Origin: the human T2T-CHM13v2.0 reference genome, Homo sapiens
Direction: 5' to 3' (one strand)
DNA length: 64,000 bases
Assembly (NCBI RefSeq): GCF_009914755.1
Contig: NC_060925.1
Shown in pieces: positions 3,440 through 63,822 of the stretch. A program made the translations under genes and the position numbers. The notes under the pieces are model-generated. The model was not told the DNA's origin. It did no database searches and saw nothing but the letters and a program-made list of their open reading frames with translations. Each line of letters starts with the position of its first letter. Positions within the stretch are counted from its first letter, which is position 1.

Positions 3440-3955
3440 TAAAAATAAAAGTTTTTAAAATGTAAAACTGTATACATGCTCAGCAGAAAAACTGAAACAA
3501 TACAGAATGTATAACATAGAAAGTGAAAAGTTCCCTGGCATCCTTGTGCATTTATATGTCTAGGTGCACACACACTCTTACACACACACACGCACACACA
3601 CGTGTGCACACACATGCACATGTGTACACACACGCACAAGTGCACACACGTGCATGCACACACACGCCCAGGTGCGCACACACCCACACGCACACACACA
3701 GCACGCACACGTGCGCGCACACGCGCACACACACGCACGCGCAGACCTGCACATGCACCCAGACGTGCACGCACATGCACACACCCACACACACGCACGC
3801 ACACACGCACACACACGCTTTTTAAAAAACAGAAATGGCTCGGAAAGCGCATGTTGTTTTTAACTCTTGAAGTCATCAAGATGTTAGAAAAATCTTTCCA
3901 TGTCAATACTTGCACGTGTGCATACTTCTTACCAAGCATATAGTATTCATTTTCA
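3440..3955 (-). mobile_element. Ancient L1 (L1ME-like) 3' end split by a microsatellite
   Basis: Reverse strand reads tttcactttctatgttatacattctgtattgtttcagtttttctgctgagcatgtatac, typical of an L1ME 3' end. Confidence 0.55.
3564..3818. repeat. Long degenerate (CA)n/(CG) alternating purine-pyrimidine microsatellite
   Basis: About 255 bp of cacacg/tgcaca/cgcgca units; source of the HT/CV-repeat ORFs. Confidence 0.95.
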
Positions 3956-11900: not shown

Positions 11901-12015
11901 AACAAAGCAACAATACTAATCAATTTCTACAATTTTTAAGTCTCATACCTTTTTCTTTAGGGATGTGGGAGACAGTGGTCATGAAGGGAGAGGCTTATTA
12001 AAAAGTTGACAATGG

Positions 12016-12356
<341 letters not shown>

Positions 12357-13884
12357 TTAAGTAAAATTCCACAAAAAGAATCATCATGCATGGTTCTAAA
12401 GTAACAGAAAGAATTCTTTTTCAAGACTTGGTATCTCACTTCTCACAGGTTTGCTCTACTCTAAATAACATGCCTAAACACTAGGGACCCATCTTCCACA
12501 TCAGAATAATATGATTCTGCCAGTGTGTGGGATTTGGGAACTAGTGGGGAACAATTCATTTTCGGAAGAGAAGATGATCAATACATTGAGACATTAAAGC
12601 AAATGTTGTTCATTTATACATTGTACTAACCAGTCTTGAGTGCTTATGGGGTATCTTTCTTGGGACTCTGGTTAATGGTGTGAGGAGCAAAGAAAATACA
12701 GACCCTGATCTGCTTCTGTCTTCGTGTAGGCTGATCCCTGTGAAGAAGTCATGGGGGAAGGCTGGCCCAAGGTGTGTGGGTGGAGAGCGAGACAAGAAAA
12801 TGGGAGCAGTCATGAAGCAGTGTCCTGAAATGTCTTGCCTTCCAAGGCCTTGGGGTTTCTGCCAAAATGTGGGTTTTGTAGGGAGGTAAGCAGCTCCAAA
12901 CCTGGAAGGACATGTGGTTGAAATTATAGAAAAAAGACAAAATTATAAAGGAAGCTACTGGATGAAAGGCTGGAGTAATTTTTGTGGGGAGTAGTGAGCC
13001 CCTGTGTATACGAACATCCATGTTGATTCTCATTTATCAGAGTAAGTGCTTGCCTGGCCACATGGTTAGACTGCTCTAACAAACTGTGCCAGATGTTACC
13101 AATAAAAGAGAGTCCTTCTTTTTACATACCATTATTGGCATAATATTTTCTGTTCCCAACTCTTGTGGAGTCACTGTTGACAGCTTGATGAACTAAGGAC
13201 TCACTCTCGGTTTGACTGTGTTTCAATCATGAAAGCCCAAGACTGAAAGCAGAGTTAATAAGAGCTAACTACCTGTCTTGACAGAAAAACATAATATTAG
13301 TACCTCAGGTAGGACATCCCAAGAAAAAAACGGTTTCACGTAAGAAAGTTCCCAGAGGCAGCTGTATAAAGCCCTATTGGTGGGCTTCTAGGTTCAGGAT
13401 ATGTGAGATGTGGATCATACATTCCCTATTGCAGATTGTGTAAGGGAGGGAAGACAGGGAAGATGGAGCAGGGAAGCTAATGACACTATCAATGTGAAAC
13501 ATGGACTAGACCACCTCCAAGTACCTGGCCACTTGTAGATATTAATTGTCATTGTAATAATAATGATAAAATGTAATGACCGCCATTTATTTGGTGACTA
13601 CGTTTTGCGAGCCACGTATTTATATATTATATAAGCATAATAAATATATATATTGGTAGTTTTTGCAAGAGCCTATGAGACAGGTATCAGTTACCCCTCC
13701 ATTTTTCCTTACTGTATTCATGGCCCACTCTCTCAATTCTTCCCCCTTTTTCTGAAGGGGGAAAGTTCTCTTCAGACATTTTGAACCTCCATCTTGTCCT
13801 TCCCATCTCCAGAAGATGCTGGCCTCATACTGACTGAGTGCTTTGAGGTAAGAGCTACGAAAGCTTTATTCATTAAGGACTTTA

Positions 13885-14275
<391 letters not shown>

Positions 14276-17206
14276 ACAAGATCTTTCTTTTGTTAACGTC
14301 CTTATCTCTGATGGCATAACTTCCTTCCAGAGGTGAGAGGGGAAAAGGAGTGAGGGAAATAATAGGTCCTTCTTTGAACACATTATTTTCTTTATTTTAT
14401 AAATGAGAAACCAAGTCTCAGTATAGTGAAATTGGGGCCAAACTGATAAGCAGGGAAAATGTGTTTTGAATTCGGGTCTATTTGACTCAAAAGTCCATAG
14501 ATCATGGGCCGTGTACCTTCTCACGGCTTCTATTCCATTCTTCAACTTGTAGGTCTTTAAAAGATCTGCATGAATGACTCAATTCTGAGCTGGCCCTTTT
14601 ACTATCAGTCTCTCTGTGGGTCCCAGATGCTTATGTTGTTGCTGCATGAATGTCAGGGGTGGGAAAGGCAGTGCTGTATACGGAGGGAAGGAAGGAACCA
14701 TAAACAATACAAGGAGCCACAATTCTGTCTATAACAAGGGGAAAGTGGAAAAATCACCTCTAAACTGGTAATGTGATTGAATAAACTGTTTCTAGATAGA
14801 GTTAGATTAGGTTTCCCATGCAGAGGCCCTATATTCCACTATATGACACCCAGCACCATTCCAGAAAAACAAGTGGTCAGGTCACAACCTGGAGAAGACA
14901 GCTGACCTTGTCCCAGGTAAGGGGTTTGCATATGGAGCCTGGGCTGTGTCCTCCTCCCCTTCTTTACCCTTGAGAATACTGGGTGCCTGTTACTACAGTG
15001 GTAGTCTTTTTACACCCATATCCTCCCCTTCCCTGCAGTTCTTTCTTCCCTTCACCTACCTCTAAATCCATCTGTCCTGAAGTGGGAATTAATGAAAGAC
15101 TCCAGACTTCTGGGTAAAGATATCTTATTCCACTCTTCATTTACTCTACTACTCTCATTCAGTATGACTGTGAGCAAAAAGGTAACCTGTACCTCACCAT
15201 GTATAAAATAAGAGAATATAAGGAAATTTTGAGAGGACATTGAAACCCACAGATAAAACATCCTTAAGTCTAAGGCGAATTGCGCATCGCTGTTTCATTT
15301 TCATTGGGAATAAACCTTGTTTTTCAGTCTGGCTTGTGCCTTCTTTTTTCCTCCTGAATTGTTTTTAATAACTGAAATCGCTATGACATGGATGCAGCGT
15401 GAATTAGATATTTCCTGGTCAGCTATTGATACAGCTAATGGTGCAAAGTCACAATTTATCAATAATTAAACTTGACTCATATAGTTACAAGTTTTTAAAG
15501 GGAGATAAAAAGAAAACTCCAAAATGCAAAACACACAGAGGCTTGAGAATTGTCAGGAAACAGAGGAAGAGGAGAAACCTGAATTATAGAAAAAAAAAGC
15601 TCACTGAAGAACACAAATTAAAAATCTGTATCCAGTTCATGATGTGGACAACATGTGGGCTGCTGTTGTATTGCCAGTCTTTCACAAAAGATTCCATGTT
15701 AACTTATATTTACAGTCTAGGATGTATTATATTGATCTGGACAGTGGGTAAAAGAGATCATAGAAAAAAGTCAGGAGATTAAATTTCTCCACCTAATAAA
15801 ATATTAAACCAGAGAGAAAAAAGGAGGGGGAAAATATAATTAGTAATGAAGGGCTGCACAATTCGGGAGGATATTGGGGGAATACTTGAGAGAAAATACT
15901 AAAGGATGGATAATGACGGCAGAATAGGTTGCCCTAGACATCAAACAGCCCTTCTGGGTTTAAAGAGGTGAAAGACGAGTGAAAAGAATTTTTAGGATGC
16001 TGCTTGAGAGCCATGCAGCATAATTATCCTGTTGGGGGCTTTTAAAGAGTCTTAAGATCACCATTTTGTGAAAGTCCTTTTATTAATTGTTATTATTATT
16101 ATTAATACTGTATGAAAATTGGCCATGAGGTAGCCAACTTTACTTAGGCTATCTACACTTAAATAAATGATTTCATGTGTGGTAGATGGATCGTGTGGTA
16201 TTCAAAAGCACAATCTCACTGATTTCATTGCCATGTATCTATTTTTTTAAGAAAAATTATATGTGTATATGTATATGTATGTTTAAACTCCTTGTTAACA
16301 AAGTATTCTTTTTATTGATTTTATTCAGTTAGTTGCCTTACAAAACGTAATATCATAACTGTTAACATAAAAATTCAGCAAACTGTTGCTAACTATTAAT
16401 AGTATAGTTAGCTGAGCACATGTTATAAGGGAAGGAAAATACCAAAACCCAGATGAAGTTCTTCCATTACAGTCCAGCAGAACAAAGGAGATTCTGTTTC
16501 TCAGACACTTAAATTAGGCAAATAAAAGAGATAGAGTCTCTCTCCTCTGTCTGAAGTGGTCCACCAGTAGAAATATTCTGATTAATATAAACTAGACAGT
16601 TAAGGCATTAGACACTCAAGACATTCCACAGCTTATAATACAATAATGATTTACTTTCTTGGGCTTCAAAGTTTGAAAGTTTTTTTTTCTTTTAAATCAT
16701 TTAAGTATCAAATTGGTGGCTTTTCAGCAGCAGTAACTTCACTCAAAAATAAGCACTCTTCTTCAAAATCTATGTTTTGAATCCTCCAACTCAATTTTTA
16801 GACAAAGTAACTTTAAAGTAGGTGAAGACCACATGTCCTTTTTACAAACTGCTTTTCTTGACAAGAAGTAGTTCAAGGAGGTATTGTTCAGGCTACATTA
16901 CTGGATGGTGCTGGTAAATACAATTTTGGCCGTAGTTTGTTTCCAATTTAGTGACACTGCCTTTTTGGAATAAGATACTAAGGATTATAGCATTATTAGG
17001 ATTTACAAAAACCGCTATGATTTAGTAGCAATTGAACTTCCAAATTTTAACCTCTTGGCAACAAAACCCAATTTCCTCTTTCTTACATTAGCTCCTAATT
17101 GTCAAGACATTAAATAGCAAGCACAAAGATACTGCACTTCTAATTGCAGCATTTGGCAGAAATGAAGGGAAAGGAAGTTGTGCTACATGTTCAAAGGGAT
17201 TGTGAG

Positions 17207-17575
17207 TGTCTTAGTGAACCAGAGTTTCAGTAACAAAATATCATAGACTGGATGCCTGTAACAACAGGCATTTATTTCTCACAGTCTTGGAGGCTGGGAA
17301 CACTAAGATCAAGTTGCTGACAGGTTCAGTGTCTGGTGAGAGCTCCTTTTTCCTGGCTTGTAGATGGCCACTTTCTTTCTGTATCCTTACTTTGTGGGGA
17401 GAAGGAGAGAGCTCTAGTCTCTTTCTCTTCTTGTAAGGATACTAATCCCATCATGGGGGTTCCACCCTCATCTCACCTGTTAAGGCCCAAAGCCCCCATC
17501 TCCTAATATCATCACACTGTGGTTAGGATTTTAACGTATGAGTTTTGGAGGAAAACAAATATTCAATCCATAGGA
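17207..17575 (-). mobile_element. MLT1A-type (MaLR) solo LTR inserted in the pseudogene 3'UTR
   Basis: tgtcttagt...catttatttctcacagtcttggaggctgggaa...attcaatccatagga, 369 bp; 5-bp TSD gtgag (17202-17206) / ctgag (17576-17580). Confidence 0.9.
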
Positions 17576-18084
17576 CTGAGCAACCAAAAGACACCAGGAG
17601 AAGATTAAAATGTTACATGAGGTCTCGTCTTTAACGGTGGCCTTTAATCCTTTAATCCCCCTCCAGGAACCACACTTTTCTGTTTTTGCTTCTCTTGCTT
17701 CTTTTTGTCACTGCAGAGCATCAGTAATCTTTTTCAAGTCATCAACTTCTAAAAAAAGGCACACATCTCCATCTAAGGATACCCCAAACTTGCATAATAC
17801 AGTGACTTTTCATATTGTGTAATTTTATTTTTTAGTAACTTTTCAAAATCCAGGAAGCCATCTCTCCAAAGTGGGTTCAGAGCCTTGGCTCCATAAACTG
17901 TATTAACACCAAACGTCTTTTTGGCTGGTTTGAAGTCTGACTCTTCCTGGAATTTCTTTAGTTTAGTCCCGGTCGAGTTTGCTAATTGTTCTTTGGTGTT
18001 AGCACTTTATGTTCTCCTAACATCTTTTTAATTTAATGTTTTTTTTTTTCCAGTTGCTGTAATTTCTCTTTGGCTTTCTCGAGT

Positions 18085-18181
18085 CATATACATATACATG
18101 TATATAATATTATCTATTTATCTACCTGCCTATCATCTATCTATTATCTATCTATCGATCGATTATTTATCGATCTATCTT
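18085..18181. repeat. (TATC)n/(TA)n microsatellite inside the pseudogene CDS
   Basis: tatctatttatctacctgcctatcatctatctattatctatctatcgatcg interrupts the SEK...EK segment. Confidence 0.9.
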
Positions 18182-18284
18182 TTCTGAAACCTTTACTTCT
18201 AGTTTTACTTCTCTTTCTTTCTTTTCACATCATCACTGTCGCCCCAGTTATCCTTGATATCCTGGTCATTGCCTTCTCAGTTGT

Positions 18285-18540
18285 CCCCGCCAGTGGTATT
18301 GTGGTATTGCCGGCCCCCACCTCCCGCACAGCGGTGCTTCACGGAATTCCTGAGGCGTACTGGGAGCACTGGCACAGCCGCCGCCATTTCCCGGCAGGGG
18401 CACATGGGAGCGACAGCGAGGCGTCAGGGCCGGAAGTGTCCCTGTCTTTGCCCTCGTTGGCTACTGCGGGGCAGGCTGGGACCGAGGCTGTGTGCAGAGG
18501 CCTTTGGTGGCTGCGCACGTTGGGGAGGGGACGTAGAACT
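18285..18540. promoter_or_regulatory. Small CpG-rich island with YY1 and ETS/GABPA motifs (candidate promoter)
   Basis: About 19 CpGs in about 255 bp by eye; GCCGCCATTT 18380-18389, CCGGAAGTG 18430-18438, CGTCA 18422-18426. Confidence 0.55.
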
Positions 18541-18666
18541 CAGAGTGATTTTGAGGTTGGTGAAAAATGTTGGATGTGTAACCTTAGACTGTGGTCTAAA
18601 TGAACCACAGAAATCAAGCTAAAGGGAAAGTAGATAAAACCAGGAGAAAGAACTCTTCTGGATTTC

Positions 18667-19270
18667 TGTTGCGACTGATTACCATATAACGTCTCCTTTC
18701 CCCATAAGATTCCCAGCCCCTACTTAATCACTGCACACTGATCTCAGTACTGCTGTGAAGAGACTTTGCAGAGGTAATGAAAGCCCTAAATCAGTTGACC
18801 TTGAGACTCGGTGGGCCTGACCTAATGATGTGAGTCCTTTCAACGCAGAATTTTCTCTGGCTGGCAGCAGAAGGGGAATTAGAGAAATCTGTAGCATGAG
18901 AAGCCTTCCACATGCCATTACTGGCTTTGCCAGGGAGGTGGCCATGGGGCAAGGACCTGAGAACAGCCTCTAGGAGCCTGTCCATTCCTGGCCAATAGCT
19001 GACAAGAAAACGGGAACTTCAGTCCTACAACTGTGAGGAACTGAGCTCTGCAGACCACCTGAGTGAGCTTGAAAGGACGTTCTTCCCCAGAGTCTCTAGG
19101 TAAGAGCACAGCCCAGCTGACGCCTCGGTTTGCACCTTCTGAAACTGTGAGCAGAGAACCATGTTGAGCTCATAGGACTTCTTACCTACAGACTTGTGAG
19201 ATAATAAATGGTTGTGTTTTAAGCCACTAGGTTGTGGTCATTTGTTACTCAGCAATAAAAAGCTAATACA
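18667..19270 (+). mobile_element. MLT1E-type MaLR solo LTR
   Basis: gactttgcagaggtaat, cttcagtcctacaact, tgtgagataataaatggttgtgttttaagccacta, terminal cagcaataaaaagctaataca. Confidence 0.85.
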
Positions 19271-19585
19271 TTCCTCATCACTGATTCAAGTAACAAAAGA
19301 GGGAAAAATACAGGGACAGCTAGGGACAACAATACATAGCAAAGATATATAGAACCATGGGCTTTGCCTTATAGTTCACGTGTTCTCCACCTAGGAGACA
19401 AAATTATTGAACTAGAAAAAGCATTAAATGGGTAGCTTTGGGCATTCGCATAAAACTCCTAGTGTCTGTTTCTCCCATATGTAAAATGCAGATAATGATG
19501 TCATCCTCATAGAAGAGTTGAAGAAATAATTGAGGTAGTTGATGTGAAAGTGTTTTACAAATGTACAAAATTAATGCATGGGTGG

Positions 19586-22600: not shown

Positions 22601-24205
22601 AATGAATAAGAAGTGAAGGTGTGGGAGGGGCTGGGGACAGGAATAGGTGGCTTAGGAGAAAACATTTCCTAAGGAATAGCACATGTCGCTTTGGCTTCCT
22701 CTGTGTGAGCAAGTGTGATCCAAATAATTTCCTCGGTCCTTCCCCACTGCCCCTCCCCCTCCTCCCAGGAGAGGGGATTCATTGTCAGGTAATTAACCAT
22801 CAGCATTATAGAAAGCACTCACTAGGCAGAAGTGTGAAAACACATTTACACCTCATATAAATGGGATAGGAGATTTTGCTGTTTGAGTGGCACCTGAGGA
22901 GCCACAAATTGACAAAGATAAAGTCATCCATGGTTATGATTATAAGATCTTAAGTGCTCACATTTTGTTTCTAAAATGGGCCACCCTTTCTCCCTTCATG
23001 CTGATATCACAGAGCATATAGTGACCAGTAGACTACAAGGAGCTTGGGATATAGCTTAGGAGACATGGCAGCCCAGCTAGGATCCTACACTAGTAATTCA
23101 AGGGGTTTATTCTGCCATTGCAAGTGCAGTCAATCAATACACTTGTAAGACATGGTTCATTTGTACCCTAACGCATTGTTTCTGCCTGCAGGATACTGAC
23201 ATACAAGTACATAATTATAATACAGGGTGATAGTACCTACAGAAAAGGCATGCCCAGGAGGTTATGGAAGCATGGAAGTGGCAGTCATGGAAGATTTCAT
23301 GGAGGAAGTGACATGAAATGAGGTTCAGAGAATGAAGAGGGGCTTGTTAGGTGAATTCAATGAAAAAATGGAAACACCAGCGGGATAGTTTGGGTTCGCA
23401 TCGTACATTGTTTGGTATGAAAGAGTGGACAGATGAGGCTAGTTTAGTCTGTAAGACAGGCTTGTGGATGTGCCACAAAATAACTTGGATTTTATTCAGT
23501 AAATGATAAAAAACCTTTATGGAAATAAAGGCAGTCTGTGGATGGGGTGATTAGTAAGGAAAAAAGGAAAAAGGAAAATGGATTTTTATATTCACCATGA
23601 TAAAAATATGGAAACCTTGACACAATACTTTTAAAACTAACCACAGGACAAGTAGGTCTAGACTTCTTCTCAACTGGAGAAGGAGGAGGGAATTAAGAGC
23701 TATAATTTTCATACTCATAAAGATATTCTGGCTAATTATAGTTAGTTCCAACCAGAAACTTCTCAGTAAAGGGGAAAGGACATCTGTGGAACTGGGGGCA
23801 GAGCCTTATTAGCCTCCACGGTAGTATTTAACATCAATTGCTATTAGAAAAGCAAACCTTTCAGTTGAACTGCCTCTTCTCTGGCTCTAAATTTAACTCA
23901 TCTCAATCTTCACTGTAGAAGAACGGGAAATTCCTACTTCACACAACTCTAAGGGGACATTATTAGGTCTGTCCCATCTCCTGTAAGTTATAACTATGAT
24001 TGCACCAAGCCTTGGGCATCTCATAAAAACATGAGGTTCTCTTAAGTATAGGAGGGACATATTTAGGATGAATGAAAAAGGATGTGGGCCCTTTAATAAA
24101 TGTTATTTGATGTCACAGAATTTAGACGTACTTTAGATGTAACAGTGATTCTTCTCTTCCTTAGGCGAATTTATTCTCTTCTTACTGTTTTACAATGTAT
24201 GTATG

Positions 24206-41648: not shown

Positions 41649-42282
<634 letters not shown>

Positions 42283-62320: not shown

Positions 62321-63732
62321 TGCAAAACAAAATGATGTTGAATATATAAACGAACAGTATTATTTCTGTTTCCTTCTGCTAATACGTGTGACTAATGGGC
62401 TTCTAAGTATATGCCAGAGATGATCAAGTTGCTGCTGGGCCTCTAGTGAAGAAGGTGTGCTGGACCTGTGTGTAATTATAAATGTATTCATTCTGCACAT
62501 ATTTCCTGAGGCTCTTCCATGTTTGTGATATTTTGTAGAGTTCTGACAGGTGATGCAAAGGTGACTGCATCTACAACTTAAATACTGCATGCAGGACGGA
62601 TCATTGAATTGTAAGAATGACTTAACAGCAAAGACTCAGGAAAGACTAGTACAGTAAGCAAGAGCATCTAGGGTGGAGGCATGTGTTGCATATGCATCAC
62701 AATGAAGATGGTGACCTTTTAGTCTGAAAATACAAAGGCTGGGAGGGGCTTGGGGGGATACCAGATGAGAAGTCAGTTGACCATTTAGACTTTTCTTTCC
62801 AAGTAAATACATTTAATACTTCAGCATCCCCTTTTGTGAGGATCCTGGGAAACTAACTTTATTTTTGGTGTCTTGGTTTTCTTATTTGTATCACAGGCAT
62901 AATAATATCTTCTTTACTTATCTAACGTAATTATTTTAAGACTCAACTTGAGAAACTCAGAAAGTTTTCAGTTCTAAACTAATAAAAGGAAGCATCAACT
63001 CTATGAAATTAGAATTAGTCCATAGGGACCTTTAGATCTAATTGGGGTGATATGAGAAGTAGACAAATACAGTGTATTATGATCCAACAGCTCCAAATTA
63101 TAGGGATCAGATTAAAGGCTATGATAGTCCAGTGGGGAATTCATATCTAACTGGGAACTGAGCATGGTCCTTTGCTTAGAATTAGATATACTATTTATTT
63201 TAAACCCCAAAAGGCTTGGTAACATGTTATGGGCAAATGTTTATTAAATGTGAGATGTTTACCAAATGATGACATTGTAGGTTTCTGATTCTAAGTCATT
63301 TAATCTGGATGTAAGCAGCAAATATATTATGAAATTCCCATAAAGGAAATCCAGAGTTTAAATGATGATCTGACTTTGGGGCATTCTTATTTTTATTTTT
63401 ATTTTTTTGCAAGCAAGAAAAAAGGTATGGGAAGTGAGCCACAAGCTGTTTTAGGAAGGAGGTTGTGTATGGTAAAGGTGCATCCCTGCTGCATTTCAAT
63501 ATTTAAAACCCGAGGAGACCTATGGAGACCACAGACAGATGTAGCATTCTGGTTATTTTCTTTTTATTGCTTTCTGGAAGGTATTCATCTTGCAGTGTCT
63601 TACAGTACCATAAGGTACTCTCTACTATCCAGTATCCCATTACCAGGGCATTTTCAATTGCTAAAAACTCCCAGAAACAACTTCATGTTAACTGAGGCTC
63701 ATAAAGATGAGATGTCAGCCCTATAATATGTT

Positions 63733-63822
63733 TCTCCCATCCAAGTACAAAACAGGCCTGACCCTGCTTAGCTTTCGAGATCAGACGAGATCAGGCACCT
63801 TCAGAGTGGTATGGCTGTAGAC
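63733..63822 (-). pseudogene. RNA5S: 5S rRNA retropseudogene, 3'-truncated (nt 1 to ~90)
   Basis: Reverse strand gtctacagccataccactctgaaggtgcctgatctcgtctgatctcgaaagctaagcagggtcaggcctgttttgtacttggatgggaga matches 5S; TSD c(c/t)tataatatgtttct at 63720-63735 and 63823-63838. The symbol names the parent family. Confidence 0.97.

What the first reader, a model, noticed from the sequence alone, without database searches (positions are those of the whole stretch)
18240..18560. Ancient EIF3J retrocopy whose 5' end still looks like a live CpG-island promoter
Seen: the CDS is heavily decayed and an MLT1A LTR sits inside its 3'UTR, yet about 19 CpGs survive in about 255 bp around the old start codon. 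The stretch carries a YY1 motif (GCCGCCATTT, the ATGGCGGC start itself), an ETS/GABPA motif (CCGGAAGTG), a CRE half-site and TGCGCA. GC-rich sequence continues about 150 bp upstream of the ATG. Established: methylated germline CpGs decay quickly, and YY1 plus ETS sites typify housekeeping and bidirectional promoters. Inference: the retrocopy imported an unmethylated promoter seed that may now drive a non-coding, antisense-EIF3J or enhancer transcript in an otherwise gene-free region.
Basis: partly seen in the sequence, partly recalled or inferred. Interest (0 to 1): 0.72.

Follow-up and report, generated by a model that had tools for sequence, protein, structure and literature searches.

The report
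CpG-rich head of old EIF3J pseudogene
The front end of a very old, broken copy of the EIF3J gene has kept far more CpG sites than its sister copies and sits where an annotated pseudogene transcript starts, so it is probably a small self-carried promoter, which is a known kind of thing.

Summary
Window 18280-18535 has 19 CpGs in 256 bp (GC 66%, O/E 0.68; window-wide O/E 0.175). The ETS 9-mer, the YY1/start-codon 10-mer, a TGACG half-site and TGCGCA are all present.

The stretch is the 5'UTR and first coding part of a minus-strand EIF3J processed pseudogene. The pseudogene is collinear with all 8 exons of the parent on chr15, about 16% diverged at non-CpG sites, with its ORF destroyed and an old LTR-like repeat in its 3'UTR.

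The CpG richness is more than inheritance. This copy keeps 12 of 32 parental CpGs. Two sister retrocopies of equal or younger age keep 5 of 63 (P=0.001). Its own body has O/E 0.21.

The RefSeq transcript NR_104294.1 (hub annotation) starts at 18414, inside the islet. That is 16-24 nt downstream of the ETS site, and the transcript ends at the inherited poly(A) signal.

Only the CpG backbone and the YY1/ATG motif were imported. TGACG arose in the copy, and the perfect ETS site probably did too.

Best reading: a small, long-hypomethylated CpG-islet promoter drives the sense pseudogene RNA. Antisense or enhancer use has no support. Methylation, CAGE and ChIP could not be tested. This is a known class (parent-inherited retrocopy promoters) and of low interest.

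The parts
16292..18495 (-). EIF3J processed pseudogene (LOC100422212). Homology to the chr15 parent is detectable from 18495 (parent C15:42345039, 122 nt 5' of the parental ATG) down to 16316.
   Evidence: Collinear intronless matches to all 8 parental exons at 71-82% identity, with non-CpG mismatch 246 of 1498. The ORF is destroyed. The span and the 'transcribed pseudogene' label come from the hub annotation.
18311..18533 (.). CpG islet: 223 bp, GC 68.6%, 18 CpGs, O/E 0.69.
   Evidence: It passes the Gardiner-Garden/Frommer criteria and fails Takai-Jones.
18414..18414 (-). 5' end of RefSeq NR_104294.1, the annotated transcript start, 27 nt 5' of the old ATG.
   Evidence: Hub annotation only, not tested here. 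The base is a G preceded by T (read).
18430..18438 (+). Perfect ETS/GABPA-type 9-mer CCGGAAGTG, at -24 to -16 relative to the annotated start.
   Evidence: 1 hit against 0.09 expected. It is absent from the parent and from the three sister copies aligned across the site. Factor binding was not tested.
18422..18426 (-). TGACG (CRE half-site) at -12 to -8. It carries a CpG that is new in this copy.
   Evidence: One search shows chance frequency. The parent and the three sister copies aligned across the site all read TAACT here.
18380..18389 (+). YY1-type motif overlapping the old start codon (minus-strand ATG with A at 18387), at +26 to +35 from the annotated start.
   Evidence: The ATGGCGGCGGC core is shared with the parent.
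18496..18560 (-). GC-rich sequence 5' of detectable parental homology, with 3 CpGs and TGCGCA at 18512-18517. Its origin is undecided: decayed parental promoter or insertion-site flank.
   Evidence: The local alignment to 246 nt of parental upstream sequence is no better than shuffles (719 of 1000 shuffles score as high). TGCGCA is at chance frequency.
17205..17576 (-). Old LTR-like interspersed repeat inserted into the retrocopy's 3'UTR after retroposition.
   Evidence: It interrupts parental exon 8 at about position 172, roughly 38 nt after the stop codon. The genome search gave 4506 first-look candidates, and all 40 that were scored matched, one being the insert itself and the other 39 at 71-79% identity. 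The family name was not verified.
18108..18180 (.). (TATC/GATA)n microsatellite grown inside the old CDS.
   Evidence: It contributes CpGs at 18156, 18160 and 18171, which lie outside the islet.
16311..16325 (-). Two inherited AATAAA signals. The annotated transcript ends 19 nt after the second one.
   Evidence: Read. Homology to the parental last exon runs to 16316.

Best explanation
The flagged stretch is the 5'UTR plus the first ~130 nt of coding sequence of a very old EIF3J processed pseudogene on the minus strand.

The source mRNA started at least 122 nt upstream of the parental ATG. That is at least 28 nt further upstream than any sister retrocopy, so it carried a slice of the parental CpG-island promoter/5'UTR together with the YY1-type motif at the start codon.

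At the new site this roughly 225-255 bp piece stayed largely unmethylated in the germline, so its CpGs decayed slowly. It also gained a TGACG site and, probably by mutation in place, a perfect ETS site.

It now most likely acts as a small TATA-less CpG-islet promoter. Transcription starts about 20 nt downstream of the ETS site, runs in the sense direction through the dead CDS and the inserted LTR, and ends at the inherited poly(A) signal. The product is the annotated non-coding pseudogene RNA.

Shown here: the anatomy, the parentage, the excess CpG retention, and which motifs are inherited or derived.

Inferred: germline hypomethylation, factor binding and promoter activity. The transcript start is taken from the annotation.
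For: 1. Parentage. There are collinear matches to all 8 exons of the chr15 gene. The 5'UTR alignment runs from 18495 to the ATG.

2. CpG retention relative to age. This copy is the most diverged of the five copies that have 5' ends, with non-CpG mismatch 0.164. It keeps 12 of 32 parental CpGs. The others are:
- chr2: divergence 0.140, keeps 2 of 32.
- chr9 at 89 Mb: divergence 0.088, keeps 3 of 31.
- chr9 at 99 Mb: divergence 0.095, keeps 3 of 19.
- chr3: divergence 0.046, keeps 18 of 28.
CpG loss per unit of background divergence is lowest here, at 6.0 against 9.7-26.5 for the others. Fisher's test against chr2 plus chr9-89M gives P=0.0011. Counting kept CpGs against TG/CA products gives 12/7 against 5/30, P=0.0005.

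3. The effect is local. The retrocopy body 16292-18240 has O/E 0.21.

4. Identity to the parent is no higher at the 5' end (72-79%) than in the body (76-82%), so recent gene conversion does not explain the CpGs.

5. This copy's 5' end has 4 CpGs that the parent lacks, against 0 in chr2 and 1 in chr9-89M.

6. The annotated start at 18414 lies inside the islet. The ETS 9-mer is at -24 to -16 and the YY1-type motif at +26 to +35 (hub annotation). [quoted passage not shown]

7. There is precedent. About 3% of expressed retrocopies use a parent-inherited promoter carried in a long 5' end (PMC4772013, passages read).
Against: - No methylation, CAGE, chromatin or ChIP data could be consulted. The transcript start rests on one RefSeq model, whose 5' end may be incomplete.
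- Protection is only partial. 20 of 32 parental CpGs are lost, 7 of them as TG/CA. The islet may therefore have been unmethylated in the past and be methylated and silent now.
- The contrast with the copy's own body is not significant on aligned parental CpGs: 12 of 32 against 1 of 9, P=0.23.
- The young chr3 copy has a loss ratio of 9.7, not far from 6.0.
- The islet fails the stricter Takai-Jones definition.
- Only 81 nt of parental sequence lie upstream of the annotated start. The 5' boundary of the insert is undefined: no target-site duplication was found (208 of 500 shuffles score as well), and there is no significant homology beyond 18495.
- The polarity of the ETS site is ambiguous at one base. 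The chr9-89M copy shares the T at that base, while the parent, chr3 and chr2 have C.
- The parent was used as a stand-in for the ancestral sequence.
Confidence: 0.6

Rival explanations
1. Fading relic. The CpG richness is a leftover from an exceptionally CpG-dense parental exon 1/2 (33 CpGs in 271 nt, O/E 0.99), perhaps protected only early in its history. The piece is now methylated and has no promoter function. The RefSeq RNA would then reflect noise or a 5'-incomplete clone.
For: The parental 5' end is very CpG-dense. 20 of 32 parental CpGs are already lost. The islet is short and fails Takai-Jones. The own-body contrast is not significant (P=0.23). No paper treats the locus as anything but a nearest-gene label or an array-probe label (5 papers found; passages of 2 read).
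Against: Sister copies that started from the same dense sequence fell to O/E 0.12 and 0.23 at equal or lower divergence, whereas this copy is at 0.64. Using their 5/63 retention as the expectation, seeing 12 or more of 32 has binomial P=3e-6. The annotated start and the inherited poly(A) end fit a discrete transcription unit.
Confidence: 0.25
2. The islet is an orphan CpG island that works as a bidirectional promoter or enhancer, making an antisense (plus-strand) or enhancer RNA in the NUF2-PBX1 gene desert rather than, or besides, the sense pseudogene RNA.
For: CpG-island promoters are commonly divergent (general knowledge). GC stays at 53-54% around 18800-19100. RefSeq lists an enhancer at 22605-23124, about 4 kb away (hub annotation).
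Against: No plus-strand transcript is annotated here, and the only annotated RNA is sense (hub annotation). The sequence from 18706 to 19100 is an old interspersed repeat with no CpG enrichment: only 2 CpGs lie between 18700 and 18900. Nothing testable here points to enhancer function.
Confidence: 0.1
3. CpG retention without a regulatory role: a locally low mutation rate, GC-biased gene conversion, or chance.
For: The counts are small (32 parental CpGs). Only four sister copies exist as controls.
Against: Non-CpG divergence in the same 5' segment is as high as elsewhere in the copy: 0.19-0.20 against 0.16. The body of the same copy, 100-2000 bp away, has O/E 0.21. The Fisher tests give P=0.001 and P=0.0005.
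Confidence: 0.05

Closest known systems
Retrocopies expressed from a parent-inherited promoter (Carelli et al. 2016, Genome Res, PMC4772013, class A, example hsa_retrop24247; Okamura and Nakai 2008, seen only as a citation in that paper)
   Same: A parental transcript that began upstream of the usual start carried promoter-capable sequence into the retrocopy. The region just upstream of the retrocopy's start (18415-18495) is homologous to the parent.
   Different: This copy is a dead pseudogene rather than a retrogene, and is far more diverged than their cases (their dS range was 0.08-0.39). Part of the likely promoter grammar (TGACG and the perfect ETS site) is not inherited. No CAGE support was seen here. 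I could not check whether this locus is in their tables, because the supplements could not be read.
PPP1R26P1 retropseudogene in RB1 intron 2, whose CpG island CpG85 acts as a promoter (PMC4537222; abstract seen in the listing)
   Same: A processed pseudogene supplies a CpG island that serves as a promoter at the new site.
   Different: CpG85 is a differentially methylated, imprinted island inside a host gene and drives a host-gene transcript. This one is intergenic and tiny (about 225 bp), and its methylation state is unknown.
Housekeeping-type TATA-less CpG-island promoters with an ETS site near the start and a YY1 motif just downstream
   Same: The ETS 9-mer lies at -24 to -16 and the YY1-type motif at +26 to +35 of the annotated start, within a CpG-rich background. 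The downstream preference of YY1 is reported in PMC8384218.
   Different: The islet is much shorter than typical islands and fails Takai-Jones. Factor occupancy is untested. The usual positions of ETS motifs are recalled, not checked in a paper here.
Ordinary decayed processed pseudogenes: the sister EIF3J copies on chr2, chr9 (two), chr3, chrX and chr12
   Same: They share the same parent and the same intronless structure, and the older ones have equally broken ORFs.
   Different: The two old sister copies with full 5' ends have 5'-end O/E of 0.12 and 0.23 and keep 6-10% of parental CpGs. This copy has O/E 0.64 and keeps 37.5%.

Membership tests
Processed pseudogene (retrocopy) of EIF3J | Intronless and collinear with the spliced parental exons | tested here: met
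   All 8 parental exons match in order on the minus strand without the introns.
Processed pseudogene (retrocopy) of EIF3J | Poly(A) tail and target-site duplications | tested here: inconclusive
   The inherited AATAAA signals are present at 16311-16325. The tail has degenerated into A-rich and CATA-like sequence. The best flank match is no better than 208 of 500 shuffles.
Processed pseudogene (retrocopy) of EIF3J | Disabled reading frame | tested here: met
   15 stops in the best tblastn alignment, 38.6% identity, and a 36-aa ORF from the old ATG.
CpG island (Gardiner-Garden and Frommer thresholds, recalled: at least 200 bp, GC at least 50%, O/E at least 0.6) | Length, GC and O/E thresholds | tested here: met
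   18311-18533 is 223 bp with GC 68.6% and O/E 0.69.
CpG island (Takai-Jones thresholds, recalled: at least 500 bp, GC at least 55%, O/E at least 0.65) | Length, GC and O/E thresholds | tested here: not met
   No interval of 500 bp or more qualifies.
CpG island (functional sense) | Unmethylated in germline and soma | not testable with these tools
   Only an indirect signature is available: 12 of 32 parental CpGs kept against 5 of 63 in the sister copies.
Retrocopy with parent-inherited promoter | Sequence upstream of the retrocopy's start is homologous to the parental gene | tested here: met
   18415-18495 aligns to C15:42345039-42345125. The start at 18414 is taken from the hub annotation.
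Retrocopy with parent-inherited promoter | Start site supported by cap-based data, and promoter activity of the fragment | not testable with these tools
   No CAGE or reporter data were available. The literature searches found nothing on this locus's promoter.
ETS/YY1-type housekeeping promoter | Consensus motifs present near the start | tested here: met
   Each motif occurs once in the 64 kb window, against 0.09 and 0.01 expected.
ETS/YY1-type housekeeping promoter | Motifs occupied by GABPA/ETS and YY1 | not testable with these tools
   No ChIP data were available.

The most novel reading that the evidence does not exclude
The islet is a retrocopy-seeded orphan CpG-island promoter that selection has kept active since early eutherian times. 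On this reading the perfect ETS site and the new CpGs were built in place on an imported CpG-rich scaffold, and its sense non-coding RNA, or the open chromatin itself, has a function in the NUF2-PBX1 gene desert. It would be a dated, step-by-step example of promoter birth from a 5'UTR.
Probability: 0.1. Interest if true: 0.5.

Novelty: new member of a known kind. Interest (0 to 1): 0.25.

Why it matters
If the islet is truly unmethylated and active, it is a clean, datable example of how a retroposed 5'UTR can seed a promoter. Four sister copies serve as built-in neutral controls. The motifs can be sorted into inherited (YY1/ATG and the CpG backbone) and locally born (TGACG and probably ETS). 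That has teaching value for promoter and lncRNA origination, but it does not open a new question. The class has been described genome-wide and the locus is already labelled a transcribed pseudogene.

Tried and rejected
- Homology of 18496-18640 to 246 nt upstream of the parental 5' end: the score is no better than shuffles (719 of 1000 score as high). I therefore do not claim that the copy carries more parental promoter than the sequence up to 18495.
- Target-site duplication search, to fix the insert boundaries: nothing above shuffles.
- Rfam scan of 15500-19500 at E up to 1: 0 hits. The locus is not a known RNA family.
- Gene conversion from the parent as the source of the CpGs: rejected, because identity at the 5' end is not higher than in the body.
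- The other CpG-dense spots in the window are not comparable islands. 3566-3816 is a simple repeat. 11961-12370 and 41801-42260 coincide with stretches that the hub lists as masked repeats. I did not identify their family.
- Literature on the locus. The terms LOC100422212, EIF3JP1 and NR_104294 gave 5 papers. I read passages of two of them, where the name is a nearest-gene label in a GWAS or labels array probe cg24596788. Neither the probe's position nor any methylation values are given, so I drew no conclusion from it.
- Carelli et al. supplements: could not be read. Xi et al. 2007: not held.
- Orthologous copies in other mammals could not be examined, because no other mammalian genome is held.

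Full report
**What is there**

On the minus strand, window 16292-18495 is a processed pseudogene of EIF3J. A search of the window's own genome found the parent on contig 15. All eight exons match the window in order and without introns, at 71-82% identity. Summed over all HSPs, the non-CpG mismatch to the parent is 246 of 1498, or 0.164.

The reading frame is destroyed. The best protein-level alignment has 38.6% identity with 15 stops, and the ORF from the old ATG (A at 18387) is 36 aa. A (TATC)n microsatellite has grown inside the CDS at 18108-18180.

The genome search returned 4506 first-look candidates for it. All 40 that were scored matched; one is the insert itself and the other 39 are 71-79% identical, many nearly full-length. 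This is what an old solo LTR looks like. I could not verify the name MLT1A. The parent and the sister copies lack the insertion, so the retrocopy predates it.

**The observation**

Window 18280-18535 holds 19 CpGs in 256 bp, with GC 66.4% and O/E 0.68. The flagged 18240-18560 holds 20 CpGs with O/E 0.64. The retrocopy body 16292-18240 has O/E 0.21, and the whole window has O/E 0.175.

A UCSC-style scan gives an islet at 18311-18533: 223 bp, GC 68.6%, 18 CpGs, O/E 0.69. It meets the Gardiner-Garden/Frommer thresholds but not Takai-Jones.

The only denser spot in the window is a (CA/CACG)n simple repeat at 3566-3816. The two other spots that pass the 200-bp thresholds coincide with stretches the hub lists as masked repeats.

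- CCGGAAGTG at + 18430-18438, 1 hit against 0.09 expected.
- GCCGCCATTT at + 18380-18389, 1 hit against 0.01 expected.
- TGCGCA at 18512-18517, 3 hits against 1.9 expected, which is chance.
- TGACG at - 18422-18426, 12 hits against 15.9 expected, which is chance.

**How much of the stretch is parental**

The alignment to the parent runs from 18495 (C15:42345039) through the ATG (parental ATG at 42345163) and into exons 1 and 2.

The parental ATG is therefore preceded by at least 122 nt of sequence that is also in the copy (109 nt in the copy). In the three sister copies with complete 5' ends, detectable homology begins 28-44 nt further downstream, at parental positions 29-45 in numbering that starts at 42345039. 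The source transcript of this copy thus began further upstream than those of its sisters.

Beyond 18495 I found no significant homology to 246 nt of parental upstream sequence (719 of 1000 shuffles score as well). I also found no target-site duplication. The origin of the last ~40 GC-rich bases, 18496-18535, which carry 3 CpGs and TGCGCA, is therefore open. The flank 18496-18705 is unique in the genome search, and 18706-19100 is an old interspersed repeat.

**Is the CpG richness more than inheritance?**

A search with a spliced-like sister copy found 13 candidates. All were scored, and they resolve into the parent plus the same set of retrocopies. Five copies have a 5' end, and one of those is partial.

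Each copy was aligned globally to parental exons 1+2, which hold 33 CpGs in 271 nt at O/E 0.99. Results:

| Copy | Non-CpG divergence | Parental CpGs kept | 5'-end O/E | CpG loss per unit divergence |
|---|---|---|---|---|
| This copy (chr1) | 0.164 | 12 of 32 | 0.64 | 6.0 |
| chr2 | 0.140 | 2 of 32 | 0.12 | 19.7 |
| chr9 at 89 Mb | 0.088 | 3 of 31 | 0.23 | 26.5 |
| chr9 at 99 Mb (partial 5' end) | 0.095 | 3 of 19 | 0.57 | 19.4 |
| chr3 (young) | 0.046 | 18 of 28 | 0.91 | 9.7 |

This copy is the oldest of the five and still has the lowest CpG loss per unit of background divergence.

- Fisher's test of this copy against chr2 plus chr9-89M gives P=0.0011.
- Counting kept CpGs against TG/CA deamination products gives 12/7 against 5/30, P=0.0005.
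- Using the sisters' 5/63 retention as the expectation, seeing 12 or more of 32 has binomial P=3e-6.

Results that weaken the case:
- 20 of 32 parental CpGs are gone, so protection was partial or temporary.
- The contrast with the copy's own body on aligned parental CpGs (1 of 9 kept) is not significant (P=0.23).
- The modern parent stands in for the ancestral sequence.

Non-CpG divergence in the 5' segment (0.19-0.20) is as high as in the body. A low local mutation rate or recent gene conversion therefore does not explain the pattern.

**Which motifs were imported**

- The start-codon motif (the ATGGCGGCGGC core) is shared with the parent, so it is inherited.
- At the TGACG site, the parent and the three sister copies aligned across it all read TAACT. 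TGACG therefore arose in this copy by two substitutions, which also created a new CpG.
- At the ETS site, the parent reads CACCTCCGCCG where this copy reads CACTTCCGG. Neither the parent nor any of those three copies has the 9-mer. At the critical base, the parent, chr3 and chr2 have C, while chr9-89M shares the T. A derived origin is likely but not certain without an outgroup.
- In all, this copy's 5' end has 4 CpGs that the parent lacks, against 0 in chr2 and 1 in chr9-89M.

**Function**

The hub annotation gives one RefSeq transcript, NR_104294.1, as a single exon from 18414 to 16292 on the minus strand. Its 5' end lies inside the islet.

Positions relative to that start are:
- ETS 9-mer at -24 to -16.
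- TGACG at -12 to -8.
- YY1-type motif at +26 to +35.
- Old ATG at +28.

The transcript's 3' end lies 19 nt after the second inherited AATAAA. Nine of the islet's CpGs lie upstream of the start and ten downstream.

A YY1 motif just downstream of the start is a reported feature of human promoters (PMC8384218, passages read, citing Xi et al. 2007, which I could not open). The usual position of ETS motifs close to starts is recalled, not checked.

The most economical reading is a small TATA-less CpG-islet promoter that drives the sense pseudogene RNA. I put this at about 0.6. The relic reading gets 0.25, the bidirectional or enhancer reading 0.1, and non-regulatory CpG retention 0.05.

Nothing I could run addresses methylation, chromatin or factor binding.

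**Comparison with what is known**

Carelli et al. 2016 (PMC4772013, passages read) sorted the promoters of 230 human and 243 mouse expressed retrocopies. They found that about 3% inherited a promoter from the parent, through a parental transcript from an upstream start that carried a downstream promoter. About 11% share a neighbour's promoter. Most of the rest are novel promoters, many overlapping CpG islands. This locus fits their first class on the one criterion I could test, and it adds locally born motifs.

The PPP1R26P1 pseudogene in RB1, whose CpG island acts as a promoter, is a second precedent (PMC4537222, abstract seen in the listing).

Five papers name LOC100422212. In the two whose passages I read, it is a nearest-gene label or labels array probe cg24596788, without position or values. 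I found no paper on this locus's promoter with those three search terms.

**Verdict**

The feature is a new member of a known kind, at a locus already annotated as a transcribed pseudogene, and interest is low (0.25).

Noticed in passing
window 3566-3816: This is the densest CpG spot in the window (23 CpGs per 255 bp, O/E 1.28 over 3633-3849). It is a degenerate (CA)n/(CACG)n simple repeat, not a CpG island.
   Followed up: yes
window 63718-63822 (-): A 5S rRNA match over the full model length (44.1 bits against a gathering score of 38). It agrees with the annotated pseudogene RNA5SP62.
   Followed up: partly
L011:2047-2172 (chr3 EIF3J retrocopy): The young chr3 sister copy carries a ~125-bp insert that matches dozens of repeats in the parental introns (Alu-like). 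It sits at almost the same 3'UTR position (parental exon 8, about 147-167, duplicated on both sides) as the LTR-like insert in the chr1 copy. The two insertions look independent, landing in the same A-rich spot.
   Followed up: no
window 18706-19100: An old interspersed repeat (148 first-look candidates, 67-82% identity) lies about 200 bp upstream of the retrocopy. Its family was not identified.
   Followed up: partly
G000:C15:42345206-42345291: The parental gene has a very short first intron of about 86 nt inside its CpG island, splitting the first coding part into two small exons. All retrocopies lack it, which confirms that they derive from spliced mRNA.
   Followed up: partly
window 18403-18405 (-): An ATG lies 18 nt upstream of the old start codon and in frame with it, inside the annotated transcript. 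In the alignment the parent shows no ATG at the corresponding position. No coding meaning is expected.
   Followed up: no
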